Part shown: piece by piece, positions 21,306 to 60,669 of the stretch
Position numbering within the stretch: position 1 is the stretch's first letter
How the letters are laid out: the number at the start of each line of letters is the position of its first letter
Source: an uncultured Erysipelotrichaceae bacterium
Lineage (GTDB): Bacteria > Bacillota_I > Bacilli_A > RF39 > UBA660
Assembly (NCBI GenBank): GCA_902767245.1
Contig: CACXGO010000037.1
Span: forward strand, 1 to 61,224
Direction of reading: 5' to 3'
Length of the DNA: 61,224 nt
The notes under the pieces: model-generated
Database searches by the model: none
Told to the model about the DNA's origin: nothing
Seen by the model: only the letters and a program-made list of their open reading frames with translations
Program-made: the position numbers and the translations under genes

Positions 21306-22169
21306 ATGGCTAGAAAAAGGAAAAAAGAATTTATTTTAACATATAAAAAAATACTAATTTTACTTGCTTCTCTTGTAATTATTGCTTTAACTATAATTGT
21401 TGTAAATCGAACTATTCCTTCAACACCAGATTATAAAATTTCATTTAACTTGAGAGAAGATGAAATGTATATAGGTGATACTAGAAAGTTTGATTATTAC
21501 ATTTTAAATGCAACAGGAAATGATAAATTGATTTGGGCAACTTCCGATAGTCGAATCGCTTCAGTTGATGCAAATGGTAAAGTAAATGCCAAATCATTTG
21601 GAGATGTTAAAATAACTGTAAGTTTAGTTAATGGAAATAGTGCTACATTAAAATTACATATAAAAAGCTACCCTGTTTCTTTAAAGTTAAATATAGATCA
21701 AACGGCTTCGCATGATTGGTTTAATAAACCAGTTAATGTAGAAATTGAGTCATTTAATATTAAAAATATTAAGTATTGCGTATCAGCTTCTGAAAAATGT
21801 AATCCCAATATAGTTTATAAAGGAAAAATAACTTTGAAAAATGGAATGTGGTACCTAAATATTAGTGGAATTGATCGTAATTTACAGGAGTTTGATTATC
21901 ATGAGCTTTTTAAAGTAGATTTAATTGCGCCTGTTTGTAATATTACAAGACTTGGAAAATTAGAAGAAGAAACAGCAACTATAATGGTTAATTGTGTCAA
22001 AGATATAAGTGGAATTTATAGTTATGAATGGTATCGTGATGGTAAACGCATTTATGTAACAAATAAAGATCAAATTAATACTAAAGAGATATATGAAGAA
22101 GGCAAACATAAATATAGTGTTAAAGTATATGATTTAGCTGGAAATTATAGTGAGATTTCAGTCAATTGA
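21306..22169 (+). CDS. Membrane-anchored surface protein with a Big_2 Ig-like domain and further Ig-like modules
   Basis: N-terminal K-rich tail plus TM helix; LIWATSDSRIASVDANGKVNAKSFGDVKITV (Big_2); C-terminal DLIAPVC... and VYDLAGNYSEISV motifs. Confidence 0.7.
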   Translation: MARKRKKEFILTYKKILILLASLVIIALTIIVVNRTIPSTPDYKISFNLREDEMYIGDTRKFDYYILNATGNDKLIWATSDSRIASVDANGKVNAKSFGDVKITVSLVNGNSATLKLHIKSYPVSLKLNIDQTASHDWFNKPVNVEIESFNIKNIKYCVSASEKCNPNIVYKGKITLKNGMWYLNISGIDRNLQEFDYHELFKVDLIAPVCNITRLGKLEEETATIMVNCVKDISGIYSYEWYRDGKRIYVTNKDQINTKEIYEEGKHKYSVKVYDLAGNYSEISVN

Positions 22170-22194
22170 CAATTTAATTATGATTTGCTATAAT
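22166..22194 (+). promoter_or_regulatory. Consensus sigma-A promoter of the T-box/tRNA-Pro/proS unit
   Basis: TTGACA (22166-22171, containing the upstream stop TGA), 17 nt, TATAAT (22189-22194). Confidence 0.7.
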
Positions 22195-22199
22195 TAACG

Positions 22200-22396
22200 C
22201 ATAAATCGATGAAAAAGGAATTTTATAGAAATTTTTATAGAAGTGAGCTTGGTACAGTGAAAACAAGTTATAAAAATCTATAAATCCGGCCTTTTGAGAG
22301 GAACTAATTATTCCCGGTCTAAAGCCGTTATTAAAATTAAGTAAATAAAGGATGGTACCGTGCTTATGCACTCCTTAAATGTGCCATCTTTTTTTC
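22200..22396 (+). promoter_or_regulatory. T-box riboswitch leader, proline-specific (candidate specifier CCG)
   Basis: GA/K-turn GATGA (22208-22212) opposite GAGA (22296-22299). Helix AAAAGG (22213-22218) / CCTTTT (22290-22295). CCG (22286-22288) plus purine immediately 5' of that helix. Distal loop GGTACAGTGAAA. F-box CCGTTA (22325-22330). T-box core AGGATGGTACCGTG (22349-22362). GATGGTAC/GTGCCATC helix followed by T7 (22389-22395). Confidence 0.8.
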
Positions 22397-22397
22397 T

Positions 22398-22474
22398 CGG
22401 AAAGTAGCTTAATTTGGTAGAGCACTTGGTTCGGGACCAAGAGGTTGTGGGTTCAAATCCCGTCTTTCCGACCA
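22398..22474 (+). tRNA. tRNA-Pro (anticodon CGG), CCA encoded
   Basis: Acceptor CGGAAAG/CTTTCCG, anticodon stem CTTGG/CCAAG with loop TTCGGGA, T loop GGTTCAAATCC, A73 plus CCA. Confidence 0.85.
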
Positions 22475-22496
22475 TTTTTTAGAAAAGAGGTATAAT

Positions 22497-23780
22497 ATGA
22501 AAGTATCAAAAATGGGTTTAAAAAGTATTAAATTAACAGAATTAGATAAGATGTATCCAGGTCAAGATATATTGCTTCAAACTGGCCAAATAAAACAATA
22601 TGGAAGTGGTTTATTTGCATATGATAATGTTGTTTTAAGAGTGCAGGATCGTATTGAAGAAATAATAAAAAAACACATGGATTCAATTGACTCAATCGAA
22701 GTTGAAATGCCTTTACTTCAACCAAGTGAGTTATGGAAATCATCTGGTAGATATGATAAATATATAAGCGATGGCGTAATGTTAACGGTTAAAAATGATA
22801 AATGTGAATATTGCTTAGCACCTACAGCAGAAGAAGCAATAACAAAATTTGCAGAGAATCGTTTAATATCATACAAACAATTACCAGTTTCTTTTTATCA
22901 AATTGGCAAGAAATTTCGTGATGAGATTCGTAATCGTGGTTACTTATATCGTGGCAAAGAATTTTTAATGTTTGATTTGTATTCATTTGATGAAAATGAG
23001 GATAACTTAAATAGTACTTATGAAAAGGTAAAACAGGCATATTTTGATACTTTTAAAGAACTTGAACTTGATTTAGTTGCAGTTGCTGCTGATAATGGTA
23101 CAATTGGTGGAACTAGATCTGAAGAAATGATGGTAATTTCTGAATCAGGCGAAGATACTATTCTTTATGATGGAAAGAATGGTCTAAATGTTGAGGTTTT
23201 AGAAAAAGATAATTACGCTGATTATTTAAAAAGAGAATATAATATTACTGATATAAATAACTTGAACAAGATGAAAGCAATTGAGCTTGGTCATATTTTT
23301 GCTCTAGGCACTAAATATTCAGAAAGTATGAATATTAAATATATTGATCAAAACAATCAAATAAAGCCATTTTATATGGGATGTTATGGTATTGGTGTCA
23401 GTCGAGTTTTAGGAGTTTTATATGAGAATAATATCATAAAAACAAATAATGAAATTGTTGGGTTTTCATTACCTTTATCAGTAGCACCATATTATTTGTA
23501 CATCATAAGTAATAACGAAAGAGAAGATGAAGCGCTAACACTTTATCATAAGCTAAATGAAGCTAATATCCCAATTATATTAGATGATACTAAAGATTCA
23601 ATTGGTAAAAAAATAAGAAATGCTAAGATATTAGGTATTCCATATATAGCAATATTAGGTGCAAGTACAGAAAACTTATTGGTAGAATTAGAATACACAA
23701 AAGATGATTCAAAAGAAGTAATGACTGTATCAAATGTTGTTAATAAATTTAAAGAAATAAAAGAAAAGTATCAAAGATAA
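22497..23780 (+). CDS. proS: Proline--tRNA ligase, bacterial-type core without the INS editing domain (427 aa)
   Basis: LQPSELWKSSGRYDKY, motif 2 FRDEIRNRGYLYRGKEFLMFDLYSF, ELGHIFALGTKYSESM, motif 3 GCYGIGVSRVLG, C-terminal anticodon-binding domain. Only about 130 aa lie between motifs 2 and 3. Confidence 0.85.
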   Translation: MKVSKMGLKSIKLTELDKMYPGQDILLQTGQIKQYGSGLFAYDNVVLRVQDRIEEIIKKHMDSIDSIEVEMPLLQPSELWKSSGRYDKYISDGVMLTVKNDKCEYCLAPTAEEAITKFAENRLISYKQLPVSFYQIGKKFRDEIRNRGYLYRGKEFLMFDLYSFDENEDNLNSTYEKVKQAYFDTFKELELDLVAVAADNGTIGGTRSEEMMVISESGEDTILYDGKNGLNVEVLEKDNYADYLKREYNITDINNLNKMKAIELGHIFALGTKYSESMNIKYIDQNNQIKPFYMGCYGIGVSRVLGVLYENNIIKTNNEIVGFSLPLSVAPYYLYIISNNEREDEALTLYHKLNEANIPIILDDTKDSIGKKIRNAKILGIPYIAILGASTENLLVELEYTKDDSKEVMTVSNVVNKFKEIKEKYQR

Positions 23781-23782
23781 TT

Positions 23783-24580
23783 ATGTATAAAACAATAAAA
23801 TATGAAATAGAATCCAATCGACAGTTAATAATTGCTCATTTTTCGGATATTCATTTCGCTAAAGTATTTAATCTTAAGAAATTTAAACAAATACTTGAAA
23901 AAATGAAAAATCTAAATCCTGATTATATATGTATAACTGGAGATATTGTTGACAATATTGGAATAACTAAAAATAATAAAATAAAATATTTAATTAATTT
24001 TTTGAATGATTTATCTAATATTAGTAAAGTATTAATTTGCTTAGGTAATCATGATACGCGCAATTATAAAAGCATGACTGATAATAAATGGTATTTAAAT
24101 TTAAATAAGAAAATAATTCTTTTAAATAACAGTAAGTATGAAGATAATAATGTTTTCTTTTATGGTTTAACAATGAATAATGATTATTATAAACATGAAA
24201 GAAAAAATGAACTTGATTTAGCTTTAAAACTTAAATCATTAAAAATGTCTTCTAACAAATTTAATATTCTTTTGTTTCATTCACCGATAAATTTTGATAA
24301 AAATAAAGTTCAAAAAGTAAATAATTTTGACCTAGTTTTGACAGGTCACACTCATAATGGAATAACACCACATTTTATTCCTGGTAATTATGGAGTTGTT
24401 GGCCCAAGTGGAAAATTATTTTTAAAGAATGCAAGAAATAGTTTTAAAAGTGGGAAGTCAACTGTTATTATAAGTGGTGGAATTACAAAATTAAGTTTAA
24501 GTACAGGTTTTTGTTTTTTAAACAATTTTTTTGCCAGTGATATAAATTATATATTCTTAAAAAAAAGTGAAAAAAATTAA
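23783..24580 (+). CDS. Metallophosphoesterase (calcineurin-like)
   Basis: IAHFSDIHF, TGDIVD, GNHD, GHTHNG. Confidence 0.8.
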   Translation: MYKTIKYEIESNRQLIIAHFSDIHFAKVFNLKKFKQILEKMKNLNPDYICITGDIVDNIGITKNNKIKYLINFLNDLSNISKVLICLGNHDTRNYKSMTDNKWYLNLNKKIILLNNSKYEDNNVFFYGLTMNNDYYKHERKNELDLALKLKSLKMSSNKFNILLFHSPINFDKNKVQKVNNFDLVLTGHTHNGITPHFIPGNYGVVGPSGKLFLKNARNSFKSGKSTVIISGGITKLSLSTGFCFLNNFFASDINYIFLKKSEKN

Positions 24581-31323: not shown

Positions 31324-31653
31324 TTGATTAACGGAGAAATAGAATTAACAAGTCAAGATATTTTAAGTAAAGATTTTAAAATTGATACAAGAGGTTATCG
31401 CCCTCAAGAAGTTGACAAGTTTTTAGATGTTATTATTCGCGATTATGACACATTTAATCGTCTTTTAAAGAATATGTCTATTGAAAAACAAGAACTAGTT
31501 GAAGAAAACATAAACTTAAAACAAGAAATTAGAAGTTTGAAAGCAAAAGTTGAAGTTTTAAGTAGTAATACTGATAATGGAACTAGTACTGCTGATGTTT
31601 TGAGAAGATTGTCAAATCTTGAAAAAATAGTTTACGATAACGAAAAAGAATAA
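31324..31653 (+). CDS. gpsB: Cell-cycle protein GpsB (DivIVA-domain)
   Basis: LTSQDILSKDFKIDTRGYRPQEVDKFLDVIIRDYDTF plus coiled coil. TTG start 6 nt after GAGGTGG. Confidence 0.88.
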   Translation: MINGEIELTSQDILSKDFKIDTRGYRPQEVDKFLDVIIRDYDTFNRLLKNMSIEKQELVEENINLKQEIRSLKAKVEVLSSNTDNGTSTADVLRRLSNLEKIVYDNEKE

Positions 31654-31987
31654 TACAAGGCAAACGCTGCATTTTATGTAGAGGAAAGTCCATGCTCGCA
31701 CCATCTGTGATGATGGTAGTGTTCGTGCATAGGGAAAAAATAACCTATGGTAGTTTTTAACTAACGGCATCGAATTAACCGTTTAGGTTATATTAGATAT
31801 AAAAGTGCTATAGTGACGATTTGATTTAGAAATAAATCAGGTGAGACGACGTAAACCCCACGAGCGAGAAACCCAAATTATGGTAGGGGAGCTAAAAAGA
31901 AGGAATAAAACTTCAATTTGGATCGAAAGATAGATAAATGTTTGCCAGCCTTCAACGGCTACAGGACATGGCTTATTAGTATTATTA
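31649..31987 (+). ncRNA. rnpB: RNase P RNA (bacterial type B)
   Basis: GAGGAAAGTCCATGCTCGCAC (P4 5' strand), GTAAACCCCACGAGCGAGAAACCCAAAT...GGTAGGGGA, ACAGGACATGGCTTA (P4 3' strand). P1 AATAATAC (31649-31656) / GTATTATT (31979-31986). P2 GGCAAAC (31659-31665) / GTTTGCC (31940-31946). Ends are approximate. Confidence 0.92.
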
Positions 31988-60512: not shown

Positions 60513-60530
60513 TAATTAACATGTTATAAT
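60502..60530 (+). promoter_or_regulatory. Consensus extended -10 sigma-A promoter of rplJL
   Basis: TTGACA (60502-60507, inside the last rplA codons), 17-nt spacer ending TGT, TATAAT (60525-60530). Confidence 0.7.
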
Positions 60531-60536
60531 ACATGC

Positions 60537-60669
60537 ATAACGCCGTAGACAGTAGGTGCTTTAAAGCTTAATTTCCTACCGAGGATATAAAGAAATGAGA
60601 TTCTTGACTCCTACGGTAAGTAGGAGTTTTATTATACGGCTTTTAAAATTAAAGGAGGAGGTACTTTTA
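60537..60669 (+). promoter_or_regulatory. Ribosomal protein L10 leader with an intrinsic attenuator
   Basis: GCCGTAGACAGTAGG...CCTACCGAGG helix typical of the Firmicute L10 leader. Attenuator hairpin ACTCCTAC (60607-60614) / GTAGGAGT (60620-60627) followed by TTTTATT. CCTAC occurs twice, which allows alternative pairing. Confidence 0.7.

What the first reader, a model, noticed from the sequence alone, without database searches (positions are those of the whole stretch)
22166..22496. Proline T-box whose first regulated product is its own cognate tRNA-Pro(CGG)
Seen: a consensus promoter (TTGACA-17-TATAAT) drives a leader that carries all the T-box landmarks. These are the GA/K-turn, the distal loop AGTGAAA, the F-box CCGTTA, the T-box core GGATGGTACCGTG, and a terminator helix plus T7. 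The codon-position triplet immediately 5' of the Stem I basal helix is CCG (22286-22288), followed by a purine. Only 2 nt after the terminator T-run a complete tRNA-Pro gene begins. Its anticodon CGG is the exact Watson-Crick complement of that specifier. Its discriminator A73 matches the variable base of the T-box bulge (UGGU pairs with ACCA). I see no plausible -35/-10 between the terminator and the tRNA. Transcription of the tRNA, and of proS 22 nt further on, therefore seems to require T-box readthrough. Inference: uncharged tRNA-Pro(CGG) would induce its own synthesis together with its synthetase. T-box leaders classically control aaRS, biosynthesis and transporter genes, so a tRNA gene as the first cistron is unusual.
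Basis: partly seen in the sequence, partly recalled or inferred. Interest (0 to 1): 0.62.

Follow-up and report, generated by a model that had tools for sequence, protein, structure and literature searches.

The report
Proline T-box controlling its own tRNA
A tRNA-sensing RNA switch (T-box) for proline is followed first by the gene for the rare proline tRNA whose anticodon matches its sensing codon, and only then by the prolyl-tRNA synthetase gene, so the sensed tRNA probably controls its own production, a layout I could not find in the literature.

Summary
A 12/12 consensus promoter (22166-22194) precedes a divergent T-box leader (22200-22395). The leader scores 53.5 bits against Rfam, below the gathering score of 93, with local E = 4.8e-11. 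The covariance model places CCG-G (22286-22289) at the specifier. Helices are supported by covariation. Terminator and U7 end 2 nt before tRNA-Pro(CGG) (22398-22474), and proS starts 22 nt later.

The layout is kept in all four species of the genus and in seven metagenome contigs. Sister genera have a homologous Pro T-box directly before proS, with specifier CCU and no tRNA. CCG is 5% of Pro codons, and few sister genera carry a tRNA-Pro(CGG).

The tRNA lacks the proximal promoter that 18 of 20 other lead tRNA genes in this genome have, so it probably sits inside the T-box/proS transcription unit.

tRNA-Pro(UGG) probably also reads the switch, because it must read the CCU T-boxes of relatives.

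T-box followed by cognate tRNA and then synthetase also occurs for Asn and Phe in related uncultured Bacilli. I rate this a new variant of a known kind, interest about 0.6.

The parts
22166..22194 (+). Sigma-A type promoter: -35 TTGACA (22166-22171), 17-nt spacer with TG at 22186-22187, -10 TATAAT (22189-22194). The inferred transcription start is near 22201.
   Evidence: matches 12 of 12 positions, TG present. The -35, -10 and TG are invariant in 4 genomes (alignment A1) and are kept in the metagenome copies. The start site is inferred, not mapped.
22213..22295 (+). T-box Stem I. The basal helix is 22213-22218 paired with 22290-22295. The AG bulge AGUGA is at 22242-22246 and the distal loop GGUACAGUGAAAAC at 22251-22264.
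   Evidence: Rfam alignment and minimum-free-energy fold. On 7 homologous leaders 85.9% of cells pair, against 37-53% when partners are slid. 18 pairs change on both sides, and 0 of 500 shuffles reach the observed score.
22286..22289 (+). Specifier CCG (22286-22288) followed by the conserved purine G22289, directly 5' of the basal helix.
   Evidence: Sequence and the covariance-model alignment, which places it in the 8-nt specifier-loop segment. It is invariant in the 4 genus genomes. Of the 7 metagenome copies, 6 have CCG-G and 1 has CCU-A. Homologous leaders without the tRNA have CCU-A.
22303..22330 (+). Short Stem II hairpin, then the Stem IIA/B region with F-box CCGUUA (22325-22330). There is no Stem III.
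   Evidence: Rfam alignment. Helices 4 and 5 are 100% and 92.9% paired, with double changes in helix 4.
22349..22375 (+). Antiterminator. Helix A1 is AGGA (22349-22352) paired with UCCU (22372-22375). The 7-nt bulge UGGUACC (22353-22359) has a UGGU that pairs with the ACCA-3' of an A73 tRNA. Helix A2 is GUGC (22360-22363) paired with GCAC (22368-22371).
   Evidence: Rfam alignment with high posterior probability. The same fold is found in all 7 homologous leaders, at -2.9 to -7.6 kcal/mol.
22347..22395 (+). Intrinsic terminator. AAAGGAUGGUAC (22347-22358) pairs with GUGCCAUCUUU (22381-22391) and encloses the A2 hairpin. It ends in U7 (22389-22395). It sequesters the T-box bulge and so excludes the antiterminator.
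   Evidence: RNAfold gives -17.8 kcal/mol. The equivalent hairpin plus U6-8 is present in all 7 leaders (-13.9 to -21.4 kcal/mol), with different 3' strands that all keep pairing. It was not flagged by the simple scan because the loop exceeds 8 nt.
22398..22474 (+). tRNA-Pro(CGG) gene. The anticodon is at 22432-22434. It has C1-G72, A73 and an encoded CCA, and it starts 2 nt after the U-run.
   Evidence: ARAGORN and Rfam tRNA at 67.8 bits. It is conserved in 4 genomes, with a compensatory U-A to C-G change in the anticodon stem. Its proximal promoter score is 6/13, which is background. By contrast, 18 of 20 other lead tRNA genes of this genome score 8-12.
22485..23780 (+). Shine-Dalgarno AAGAGG (22485-22490) and proS (22497-23780). 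The product is 427 aa, a bacterial-type ProRS without the INS editing domain.
   Evidence: ORF list. NCBIfam TIGR00409 scores 374 bits against a cut-off of 306.7, and the protein aligns end to end with the 437-aa PRK12325 type. It is the only ProRS hit in the genome.
23783..24580 (+). A 265-aa metallophosphoesterase-like ORF that starts 2 nt after the proS stop. It is probably the last gene of the same transcription unit.
   Evidence: ORF list. It has only weak LpxG/YaeI-type phosphodiesterase matches, E about 1e-12 and below cut-offs. Co-transcription is inferred from the spacing alone.

Best explanation
This is a working, transcription-attenuating proline T-box. Its regulated unit reads tRNA-Pro(CGG), then proS, then probably a small phosphoesterase gene.

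RNA polymerase starts near 22201. Stem I presents CCG to the anticodon of a proline tRNA and stacks on the tRNA elbow. If the tRNA is uncharged, its ACCA end pairs with the UGGU of the bulge and holds the weak antiterminator. Otherwise the much stronger terminator, which swallows the T-box sequence itself, stops transcription in the U7 run, 2 nt before the tRNA gene.

Readthrough transcripts carry the tRNA. RNase P and 3' trimming would release it, and the remainder is the proS mRNA. tRNA-Pro(CGG) is therefore made, wholly or mainly, only when the switch is open.

The specifier has been retuned from the CCU of related leaders to CCG, which gives three Watson-Crick pairs with the tRNA encoded in cis. 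The result is a loop in which a minor isoacceptor helps switch on both its own gene (positive feedback on the ligand) and the enzyme that charges it (negative feedback).

tRNA-Pro(UGG), which reads the CCU T-boxes of relatives, most likely also reads CCG by U-G wobble. That would keep the essential proS from being locked off.

Shown here: the anatomy, its conservation, helix covariation, the absence of a promoter-like site, and the co-occurrence of specifier and tRNA. Inferred: transcription start and stop, co-transcription, processing, and which tRNA is the ligand.
For: - T-box identity: full-length match to RF00230 at 53.5 bits, E = 4.8e-11, with CCG-G at the specifier position.
- Structure: across 7 homologous leaders, Stem I and Stem II/IIA-B pair in 85.9% of cells against 37-53% for slid controls. 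18 pairs show double changes, and 0 of 500 shuffles reach the observed score.
- Switch: all 7 leaders have the same pair of alternative folds. The antiterminator is -3 to -8 kcal/mol, and the terminator is -14 to -21 kcal/mol followed by U6-8.
- Conservation: the order promoter, T-box, 0-2 nt, tRNA-Pro(CGG), about 20 nt, proS is present in all 4 species of the genus and in 7 metagenome contigs.
- No independent promoter: no promoter-like site of at least 9/12 lies between 22195 and 23067 on the + strand. The best proximal promoter for the tRNA scores 6/13, as for tRNAs inside clusters. In contrast, 18 of 20 lead tRNA genes of the same genome score 8-12.
- proS depends on the T-box: proS has only 22 nt and a Shine-Dalgarno sequence after the tRNA. 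In other genera (G024, G011, G072) the homologous T-box sits directly before proS. The intact T-box can therefore only reach proS by transcribing through the tRNA.
- Specifier and tRNA co-occur: 10 of 11 leaders with the tRNA have CCG. All 3 leaders without it have CCU, including G072, which carries a tRNA-Pro(CGG) elsewhere.
- CCG is an odd choice otherwise. It is 5.2% of Pro codons. The other 11 T-boxes of this genome use ordinary specifiers: AAC, UUC, GAC, GAA, AUG, GUA, AUC, UCU, UGG, UAC, GGA.
- The same design elsewhere: T-boxes of 128-142 bits are directly followed by 2-4 tRNA-Asn genes and then gatC or asnS. T-box(UUC) is followed by tRNA-Phe and then pheS. At least 8 of 141 genera of this family have the Asn version.
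Against: - There are no expression data: no transcription start, 3' end or readthrough measurement.
- The Rfam score is below the gathering cut-off. The leader lacks Stem III and the usual AGUA/GAA S-turn motif of the specifier loop.
- Relatives that have only tRNA-Pro(UGG) run on a CCU specifier. A Watson-Crick third pair is therefore not needed, and UGG may be the main ligand here too.
- One variant (L178) carries the tRNA but keeps CCU, so the coupling is not obligatory.
- All CCG-plus-tRNA copies belong to one genus. The association therefore rests on one or two evolutionary events, not 10 independent ones.
- A weak or unconventional promoter inside the leader cannot be excluded from sequence alone.
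Confidence: 0.7

Rival explanations
1. Passenger tRNA. The T-box is functional, but as in sister genera it is driven mainly by the abundant tRNA-Pro(UGG), which reads CCG by U-G wobble. The tRNA-Pro(CGG) gene merely landed in the leader-proS spacer and is co-expressed with proS. The CCU-to-CCG change would be near-neutral.
For: G024 and G011 have only tRNA-Pro(UGG) yet use a CCU specifier, so UGG reads Pro T-boxes in this family without a Watson-Crick third pair. L178 combines the tRNA with CCU. Both tRNAs have A73, which fits UGGU. [quoted passage not shown]
Against: 10 of 11 leaders with the tRNA have CCG, and 0 of 3 without it do. CCG is invariant across the diverged species of the genus while flanking loop bases vary. 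CCG is the only non-obligatory NNG specifier among the 12 T-boxes of the genome.
Confidence: 0.2
2. Independent tRNA gene. tRNA-Pro(CGG), and perhaps proS, is transcribed from an unrecognised promoter inside the leader. T-box readthrough would then not be required for the tRNA.
For: The region is AT-rich, so weak -10-like hexamers exist, for example TTAAAT at 22374-22379. Another tRNA near a T-box operon in this genome, tRNA-Glu(CUC) after gltX, does have its own terminator and promoter.
Against: No site of at least 9/12 lies between the T-box promoter and proS. The proximal promoter score is 6/13, which is background, whereas 18 of 20 lead tRNA genes score 8-12. TTAAAT is not conserved in the other species, which read TTGTAT-C. 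The 0-2 nt spacing between U-run and tRNA is conserved.
Confidence: 0.07
3. Decayed switch. The leader is a relic that no longer responds to tRNA, so the unit is expressed constitutively by leaky termination.
For: The Rfam score is sub-threshold, Stem III and the S-turn motif are absent, and the G000 terminator has a bulged G.
Against: Helices covary. The T-box core, bulge, specifier and F-box are invariant across species of the genus that differ at about 15% of leader positions. The terminator/antiterminator pair is kept through different 3' strands.
Confidence: 0.03

Closest known systems
Transcriptional T-box leaders of aminoacyl-tRNA synthetase genes (Rfam RF00230; for example Bacillus subtilis tyrS and glyQS; Pro-specific proBA/proI leaders with a CCU specifier, PMC3858371)
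   Same: - Promoter, then Stem I with a codon plus purine in the specifier loop, and distal platform motifs.
- F-box, and a T-box sequence with a UGGN bulge.
- Competing antiterminator and terminator, with a U-run.
- A synthetase gene as target.
   Different: - The first transcribed product after the terminator is the cognate tRNA gene itself.
- The specifier is the rare CCG, matched to that minor isoacceptor.
- The terminator pairs with the T-box sequence itself rather than with the 3' half of the antiterminator.
- There is no Stem III and no AGUA/GAA S-turn motif.
- The score is below the Rfam gathering cut-off.
Homologous Pro T-box leaders of sister genera (G024, G011, G072; loci L017, L034, L167)
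   Same: The leader family is clearly the same. It has the same Stem I top (AGUGAGCUUGGUAUAGUGAAAAC), F-box, GGAUGGNACCG core and terminator design, and it sits in front of proS.
   Different: These leaders have specifier CCU-A and proS directly after the terminator, with no tRNA gene. Two of these genomes have only tRNA-Pro(UGG).
T-box followed by cognate tRNA genes and then the synthetase or amidotransferase, in uncultured gut Bacilli/'Tenericutes' MAGs. Earlier scan notes are e1-4464185 and e1-4492492.
   Same: A T-box terminator is followed within tens of nucleotides by the tRNA it specifies, and then by the charging enzyme.
   Different: Those amino acids have a single anticodon, so no choice of isoacceptor is involved. 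The Asn leaders score above the Rfam cut-off, carry 2-4 tRNA copies, and some lack a U-run. The Pro case is the one in which the specifier changed together with the arrival of the tRNA.
S. aureus glyS T-box, which reads several tRNA-Gly isoacceptors (PMC4574755)
   Same: One T-box can be opened by isoacceptors that differ at anticodon position 34. This is the likely situation for CGG and UGG here.
   Different: The S. aureus tRNA genes are not part of the T-box-controlled transcript.
Mixed tRNA-mRNA operons such as E. coli thrU-tyrU-glyT-thrT-tufB (from my own knowledge, not checked here)
   Same: tRNA genes are transcribed together with, and upstream of, a translation-factor mRNA and are released by RNase P and 3' processing.
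   Different: No riboswitch is involved, and the tRNA is not the regulatory ligand.

Membership tests
T-box leader (RF00230) | Score at or above the Rfam gathering cut-off (93 bits) | tested here: not met
   The score is 53.5 bits, a full-length match with E = 4.8e-11 in the local search. It is absent from the gathering scan and from the own-genome T-box search.
T-box leader (RF00230) | Stem I with a specifier loop holding a codon followed by a purine, next to the basal helix | tested here: met
   CCG-G lies at 22286-22289 before helix CCUUUU. The model alignment places it in the specifier segment. Stem I is supported by covariation.
T-box leader (RF00230) | Stem I distal platform motifs (AG bulge and distal loop) for the tRNA elbow | tested here: met
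   AGUGA (22242-22246) and GGUACAGUGAAAAC (22251-22264) align to the model's AGAGA and GGUGaaA positions with high posterior probability. They are nearly invariant in 7 leaders.
T-box leader (RF00230) | S-turn motif (AGUA / GAA) in the specifier loop | tested here: not met
   The loop reads GGAAUUUUAUAG ... CUAUAAAU-CCG-G. The model's AGUA and GAA positions are not matched. The same holds for the homologous leaders. The motif is typical of the family rather than strictly defining.
T-box leader (RF00230) | T-box sequence forming an antiterminator with a 7-nt UGGN-ACC bulge | tested here: met
   The core is GGAUGGUACCGUG at 22350-22362. Helix A1 has 4 bp, the bulge is UGGUACC, and helix A2 has 4 bp.
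T-box leader (RF00230) | Mutually exclusive intrinsic terminator with a U-run (transcriptional class) | tested here: met
   The hairpin 22347-22391 is -17.8 kcal/mol and includes the T-box bulge. It is followed by U7. The same design is found in 7 leaders.
T-box leader (RF00230) | Discriminator pairing: the bulge UGGN is complementary to N73-CCA of the cognate tRNA | tested here: met
   UGGU pairs with A73-CCA. Both tRNA-Pro(CGG) and tRNA-Pro(UGG) end in GACCA.
T-box leader (RF00230) | Readthrough induced by uncharged cognate tRNA | not testable with these tools
   This needs in vitro transcription or a reporter assay.
Bacterial elongator tRNA-Pro | Cloverleaf with anticodon NGG, G37, C1-G72 and A73 | tested here: met
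   ARAGORN calls Pro(CGG) and Rfam tRNA scores 67.8 bits against a cut-off of 29. The sequence reads CGGAAAG...UUCGGGA...CUUUCCG-A-CCA. The role of G72/A73 as ProRS identity elements is from my own knowledge.
Bacterial-type prolyl-tRNA synthetase (TIGR00409 / PRK12325 type) | Family score above the curated cut-off; presence of the INS editing domain | tested here: inconclusive
   TIGR00409 scores 374 bits against a cut-off of 306.7, so that criterion is met. The match falls in two stretches, and the 427-aa protein aligns end to end with the 437-aa INS-less PRK12325 type at 328 bits, below that model's cut-off of 550. It is a ProRS without INS.

The most novel reading that the evidence does not exclude
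In this genus, tRNA-Pro(CGG) may be kept mainly as a dedicated sensor tRNA rather than for decoding. The two pattern searches found this tRNA in only about 6 of the 121-141 sister genera sampled (an undercount), so tRNA-Pro(UGG) evidently reads CCG there. Here the tRNA has been moved behind the proS T-box, and the specifier has been retuned to it. The riboswitch would then control the amount of its own RNA ligand. Positive feedback through the tRNA combined with negative feedback through ProRS would give a self-scaling or switch-like set point for prolyl-tRNA charging. This topology is not described for any riboswitch class.
Probability: 0.2. Interest if true: 0.8.

Novelty: new variant of a known kind. 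Interest (0 to 1): 0.6.

Why it matters
Riboswitches normally control the genes that make, import or consume their ligand. T-boxes control the enzymes that charge theirs. Here the ligand's own gene is the first thing the switch releases, which adds a positive loop to a textbook negative-feedback device.

The Pro case is especially informative because nature has run the specifier-swap experiment. Related leaders without the tRNA read CCU. Leaders with the cis-encoded tRNA-Pro(CGG) read the rare CCG.

The case also gives a compact system of about 330 nt. With it one could test how T-boxes choose among isoacceptors, how feedback on ligand abundance shapes the response, and how tRNA processing generates the synthetase mRNA.

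Finally, it shows that annotation by the Rfam cut-off misses a whole family of Pro T-boxes in small-genome gut Bacilli.

Tried and rejected
- Exact-protein look-up of ProRS: nothing on record. The organism was therefore not named. It is a MAG of 1.08 Mb, 26.8% GC and 76% completeness, from a family of about 1-Mb gut Bacilli.
- Rfam at default thresholds: it misses this T-box, as does the whole-genome T-box search. Only the small-region E-value search finds it.
- Literature: six full-text searches found no report of a T-box directly preceding a tRNA gene. The two main comparative surveys (Vitreschak 2008, Gutierrez-Preciado 2009) are not held, so prior mention cannot be excluded.
About 40% of the 120 loci were false positives, mostly because the anticodon loop of tRNA-Pro(UGG) (U-UGG-G-A-CC) mimics the T-box bulge motif, and some from tRNA-Phe and tRNA-Gln. 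Counts of T-box-plus-tRNA loci are therefore lower bounds.
- Origin of the tRNA: the identity matrix of CGG and UGG tRNAs is flat at 60-67 of 77 positions. It does not show whether the gene was relocated from the tRNA cluster or duplicated.
- gltX / tRNA-Glu(CUC) in the same genome as a second example: rejected. A terminator and a TG-extended -10 lie between gltX and the tRNA, and the specifier is GAA, not GAG.
- Alternative specifier frames UCC (Ser) and CGG (Arg): rejected. proS is the downstream gene, and homologous leaders have CCU in the same column.
Full report
**What is there**

The window is contig C37 of a 1.08-Mb MAG with 26.8% GC and 76% completeness.

A perfect sigma-A-type promoter lies at 22166-22194: TTGACA, 17 nt, TATAAT, with an extended-10 TG. 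It is the only promoter-like site of at least 9/12 on the + strand between 21994 and 23068.

Downstream, Rfam's T-box model (RF00230) matches 22200-22378 over its whole length at 53.5 bits, E = 4.8e-11 for the local search. This is under the gathering score of 93. The default window scan, a 65-kb multi-locus scan and the whole-genome T-box search all miss it.

The model alignment places AAAU-CCG-G in the specifier-loop segment, directly before the basal helix CCUUUU (22290-22295). It aligns the following with high posterior probability:
- the AG bulge AGUGA;
- the distal loop GGUACAGUGAAAAC;
- the F-box CCGUUA;
- the core GGAUGGUACCGUG.

Stem III and the usual AGUA/GAA S-turn motif are missing.

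The terminator is unusual. Its 5' strand is the T-box sequence itself (AAAGGAUGGUAC, 22347-22358). That strand pairs with GUGCCAUCUUU (22381-22391) and encloses the small A2 hairpin. It is -17.8 kcal/mol and ends in U7. The simple terminator scan did not list it because of the long loop.

Two nucleotides after the U-run, ARAGORN and Rfam call tRNA-Pro(CGG) at 22398-22474. It scores 67.8 bits and has C1-G72, A73 and an encoded CCA.

Twenty-two nucleotides later, behind AAGAGG, proS begins (22497-23780). The product is a 427-aa bacterial-type ProRS without the INS editing domain. It is the only ProRS in the genome. A 265-aa phosphoesterase-like ORF follows 2 nt after the proS stop.

**Is the leader a real, selected structure?**

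ProRS searches in 40 relatives brought in the three other species of the genus (ProRS 80-83% identical). All three have the same order: promoter, leader, tRNA-Pro(CGG), proS.

A pattern scan of metagenome contigs added seven more copies.

Three other genera of the family (G024, G011, G072) have a clearly homologous leader directly before proS.

On an alignment of seven leaders, the Stem I, Stem II and IIA/B helices gave these counts:
- 85.9% of cells pair, against 37-53% when the partners are slid by 1-3 columns.
- 18 of 35 pairs change on both sides.
- No shuffle out of 500 reaches the observed covariation.

Each of the seven folds into the same two alternatives. One is a weak antiterminator (-2.9 to -7.6 kcal/mol) with the 7-nt UGGNACC bulge. 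The other is a strong terminator (-13.9 to -21.4 kcal/mol) followed by U6-8. The terminators have different 3' strands that all keep pairing with the conserved T-box sequence. So this is a genuine but divergent T-box family.

**Is the tRNA inside the T-box transcription unit?**

Three lines of evidence say yes.

First, there is no promoter-like site between the T-box promoter and proS.

Second, I scored the best -35/-10 within 20 nt upstream of every tRNA gene in the genome:
- 18 of 20 genes that lead a tRNA unit score 8-12 of 13, typically TTGnnA, 17 nt, TATAAT ending about 11 nt upstream.
- tRNA-Pro(CGG) scores 6, the same as tRNAs inside clusters.

The place where its promoter would be is occupied by the terminator 3' strand and the U-run.

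Third, proS has only a 22-nt spacer after the tRNA. In sister genera proS is fed directly by the homologous T-box. An intact, conserved T-box in this genus can therefore only regulate proS by transcription through the tRNA gene.

The 0-2-nt spacing between the U-run and tRNA position +1 is kept in all 11 copies.

**Specifier and anticodon**

The genome also has tRNA-Pro(UGG), the last gene of a Leu-Ser-Met-Asp-Phe-Arg-Pro cluster. It too has A73. The same tRNA is 100% identical in two other species of the genus.

CCG accounts for 5.2% of proline codons (349 of 6752 in 680 long ORFs), and proS itself has none.

The other 11 T-boxes of the genome carry ordinary specifiers: AAC, UUC, GAC, GAA, AUG, GUA, AUC, UCU, UGG, UAC, GGA (read by eye).

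The homologous Pro leaders that lack the tRNA all have CCU-A (G024, G011, G072). G024 and G011 possess only tRNA-Pro(UGG). G072 has a tRNA-Pro(CGG) elsewhere, after gltX.

Of the 11 leaders followed by tRNA-Pro(CGG), 10 have CCG-G. One, metagenome contig L178, still has CCU-A.

The specifier change thus goes together with the arrival of the tRNA, and L178 looks like the intermediate. All of these copies belong to one genus, however, so the association is one or two evolutionary events, not ten.

Two patterns found tRNA-Pro(CGG) in only about 6 of 121-141 sampled genera. It lies either next to tRNA-Pro(UGG) in the cluster or standing alone, and never at proS outside this genus. This is an undercount, because each pattern missed some copies.

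**Mechanism and its consequence**

The best reading is a classical transcription-attenuating T-box whose output is, in order, its own cognate tRNA and the synthetase.

Relatives run a CCU specifier with only a UGG anticodon. [quoted passage not shown] CCU is also the Pro specifier in Bacillus proBA/proI (PMC3858371). I therefore expect tRNA-Pro(UGG) to open this switch as well, by U-G wobble.

The CCU-to-CCG change would then add the cis-encoded tRNA as a ligand, since C34 cannot pair with U. It would not replace UGG.

That also resolves a design problem. A switch that depended only on a ligand it controls could lock an essential gene off.

The alternatives I weigh are:
- a passenger tRNA with UGG as the real ligand (0.2);
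- an unrecognised independent promoter (0.07);
- a decayed switch (0.03).

**How it compares with what is known**

I found no paper describing a T-box directly in front of a tRNA gene. TBDB pairs T-boxes with tRNAs but, in the passages I read, treats downstream genes by protein ontology. The two large comparative surveys are not held, so prior mention cannot be ruled out.

Earlier notes of this scan reported the same layout for Arg and Asn. I tested the Asn claim.
- at least 22 of T-box followed by tRNA-Asn;
- 2 of T-box(UUC), tRNA-Phe, pheS;
- 1 of an Ala T-box followed by an interrupted tRNA-like element and alaS.

Four Asn leaders score 128-142 bits. They are directly followed by 2-4 tRNA-Asn genes and then gatC or asnS.

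Within this family, 8 of 141 genera have the Asn version, and only this genus has the Pro version.

The design is therefore recurrent in uncultured small-genome Bacilli and arose more than once. The Pro case is the one that shows the specifier co-adapting to a chosen minor isoacceptor.

**Verdict**

- It is a new variant of a known kind, with interest about 0.6.
- Confidence is about 0.95 that it is a real T-box.
- Confidence is about 0.85 that the tRNA lies in the T-box/proS transcription unit.
- Confidence is about 0.55 that tRNA-Pro(CGG) is a principal ligand.

Noticed in passing
G000 contig C29:34006-35982 (locus L004), not in the window: A T-box with specifier GAA precedes gltX. tRNA-Glu(CUC) follows 42 nt after the gltX stop on the same strand. 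However, a terminator-like hairpin with a T-run and a TG-extended -10 (TATTAT) lie between them. This tRNA therefore looks like an independent unit, and its anticodon does not match the specifier.
   Followed up: partly
L037:1670-2140 (Ruminococcus sp. MAG, JAFVFL010000016.1): A T-box with an apparent GCU (Ala) specifier is followed, after its terminator, by a 131-nt tRNA-like element and then by alaS. The element scores 41.7 bits against Rfam tRNA but is not called by ARAGORN. It has normal acceptor, D and T arms but about 55 extra nucleotides in the anticodon region, G3-C70 rather than G3-U70, and no CCA.
   Followed up: no
L101:5990-6330 and L118:6040-6360 (uncultured Firmicutes/Tenericutes MAGs): A T-box with specifier UUC is followed by a terminator, tRNA-Phe(GAA), a conserved spacer of about 100 nt, and (in L118) pheS; the ORF after the L101 spacer was not identified. 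These leaders also fall below the Rfam gathering score.
   Followed up: partly
L044, L048, L059, L064, L092, L097, L102, L109, L130 (uncultured Bacilli MAGs): In a subset of the Asn T-box plus tRNA-Asn loci, the hairpin after the T-box core (UUCGUCCC...GGACGAA) is followed by A-rich sequence, not a U-run. These may not be ordinary intrinsic terminators.
   Followed up: no
L178:1000-1332 (metagenome contig Ga0247608_10414938): This is a variant of the present locus. It keeps the CCU-A specifier (basal helix GAAGA/UCUUC) although tRNA-Pro(CGG) follows the terminator. It is a likely evolutionary intermediate.
   Followed up: partly
L180:2540-2815 (metagenome contig OIYG01012365.1): This copy of the leader has the 5' strand of the Stem I basal helix and the usual promoter replaced by unrelated sequence. 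It is either a rearranged allele or an assembly chimera.
   Followed up: no
window 22497-23780: ProRS is only 427 aa and lacks the INS editing domain. No check was made for a free-standing YbaK/ProX-type editing protein.
   Followed up: no
L017:1420-1440 (G024): The homologous Pro T-box of G024 has the bulge UGGC, which would pair with G73. Whether its tRNA-Pro(UGG) carries A73, as expected from its 91% identity to the A73 tRNA-Pro(UGG) here, was not read.
   Followed up: no
genome-wide (G000), for example C2:46060, C2:59366, C21:15256, C21:60042, C28:6956, C28:16457, C29:34006, C42:21114: Despite 26.8% GC, the genome keeps a broad set of C34 tRNAs: Thr CGU, Ser CGA, Gln CUG, Gly CCC, Arg CCU, Lys CUU, Glu CUC, Leu CAA and Pro CGG. 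The seven of them that could be scored (Leu CAA lies too near a contig end) are single-gene units with a proximal promoter score of 8-11 of 13; tRNA-Pro(CGG) is the exception.
   Followed up: partly
G000 contig C28:3217-3290: tRNA-Thr(GGU) is the only other lead tRNA gene without a recognisable proximal promoter (score 5 of 13). Its upstream context was not examined.
   Followed up: no
many loci (for example L038, L045, L073): The anticodon loop and stem of tRNA-Pro(UGG) (U-UGG-G-A-CC) reproduce the T-box bulge motif UGGNACC. This produces systematic false positives in motif scans for T-boxes next to tRNA genes.
   Followed up: yes
window 31652-31980 and 60525-60641: RNase P RNA class B (256 bits) and a ribosomal protein L10 leader (71.8 bits) are present. 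Both are ordinary.
   Followed up: no
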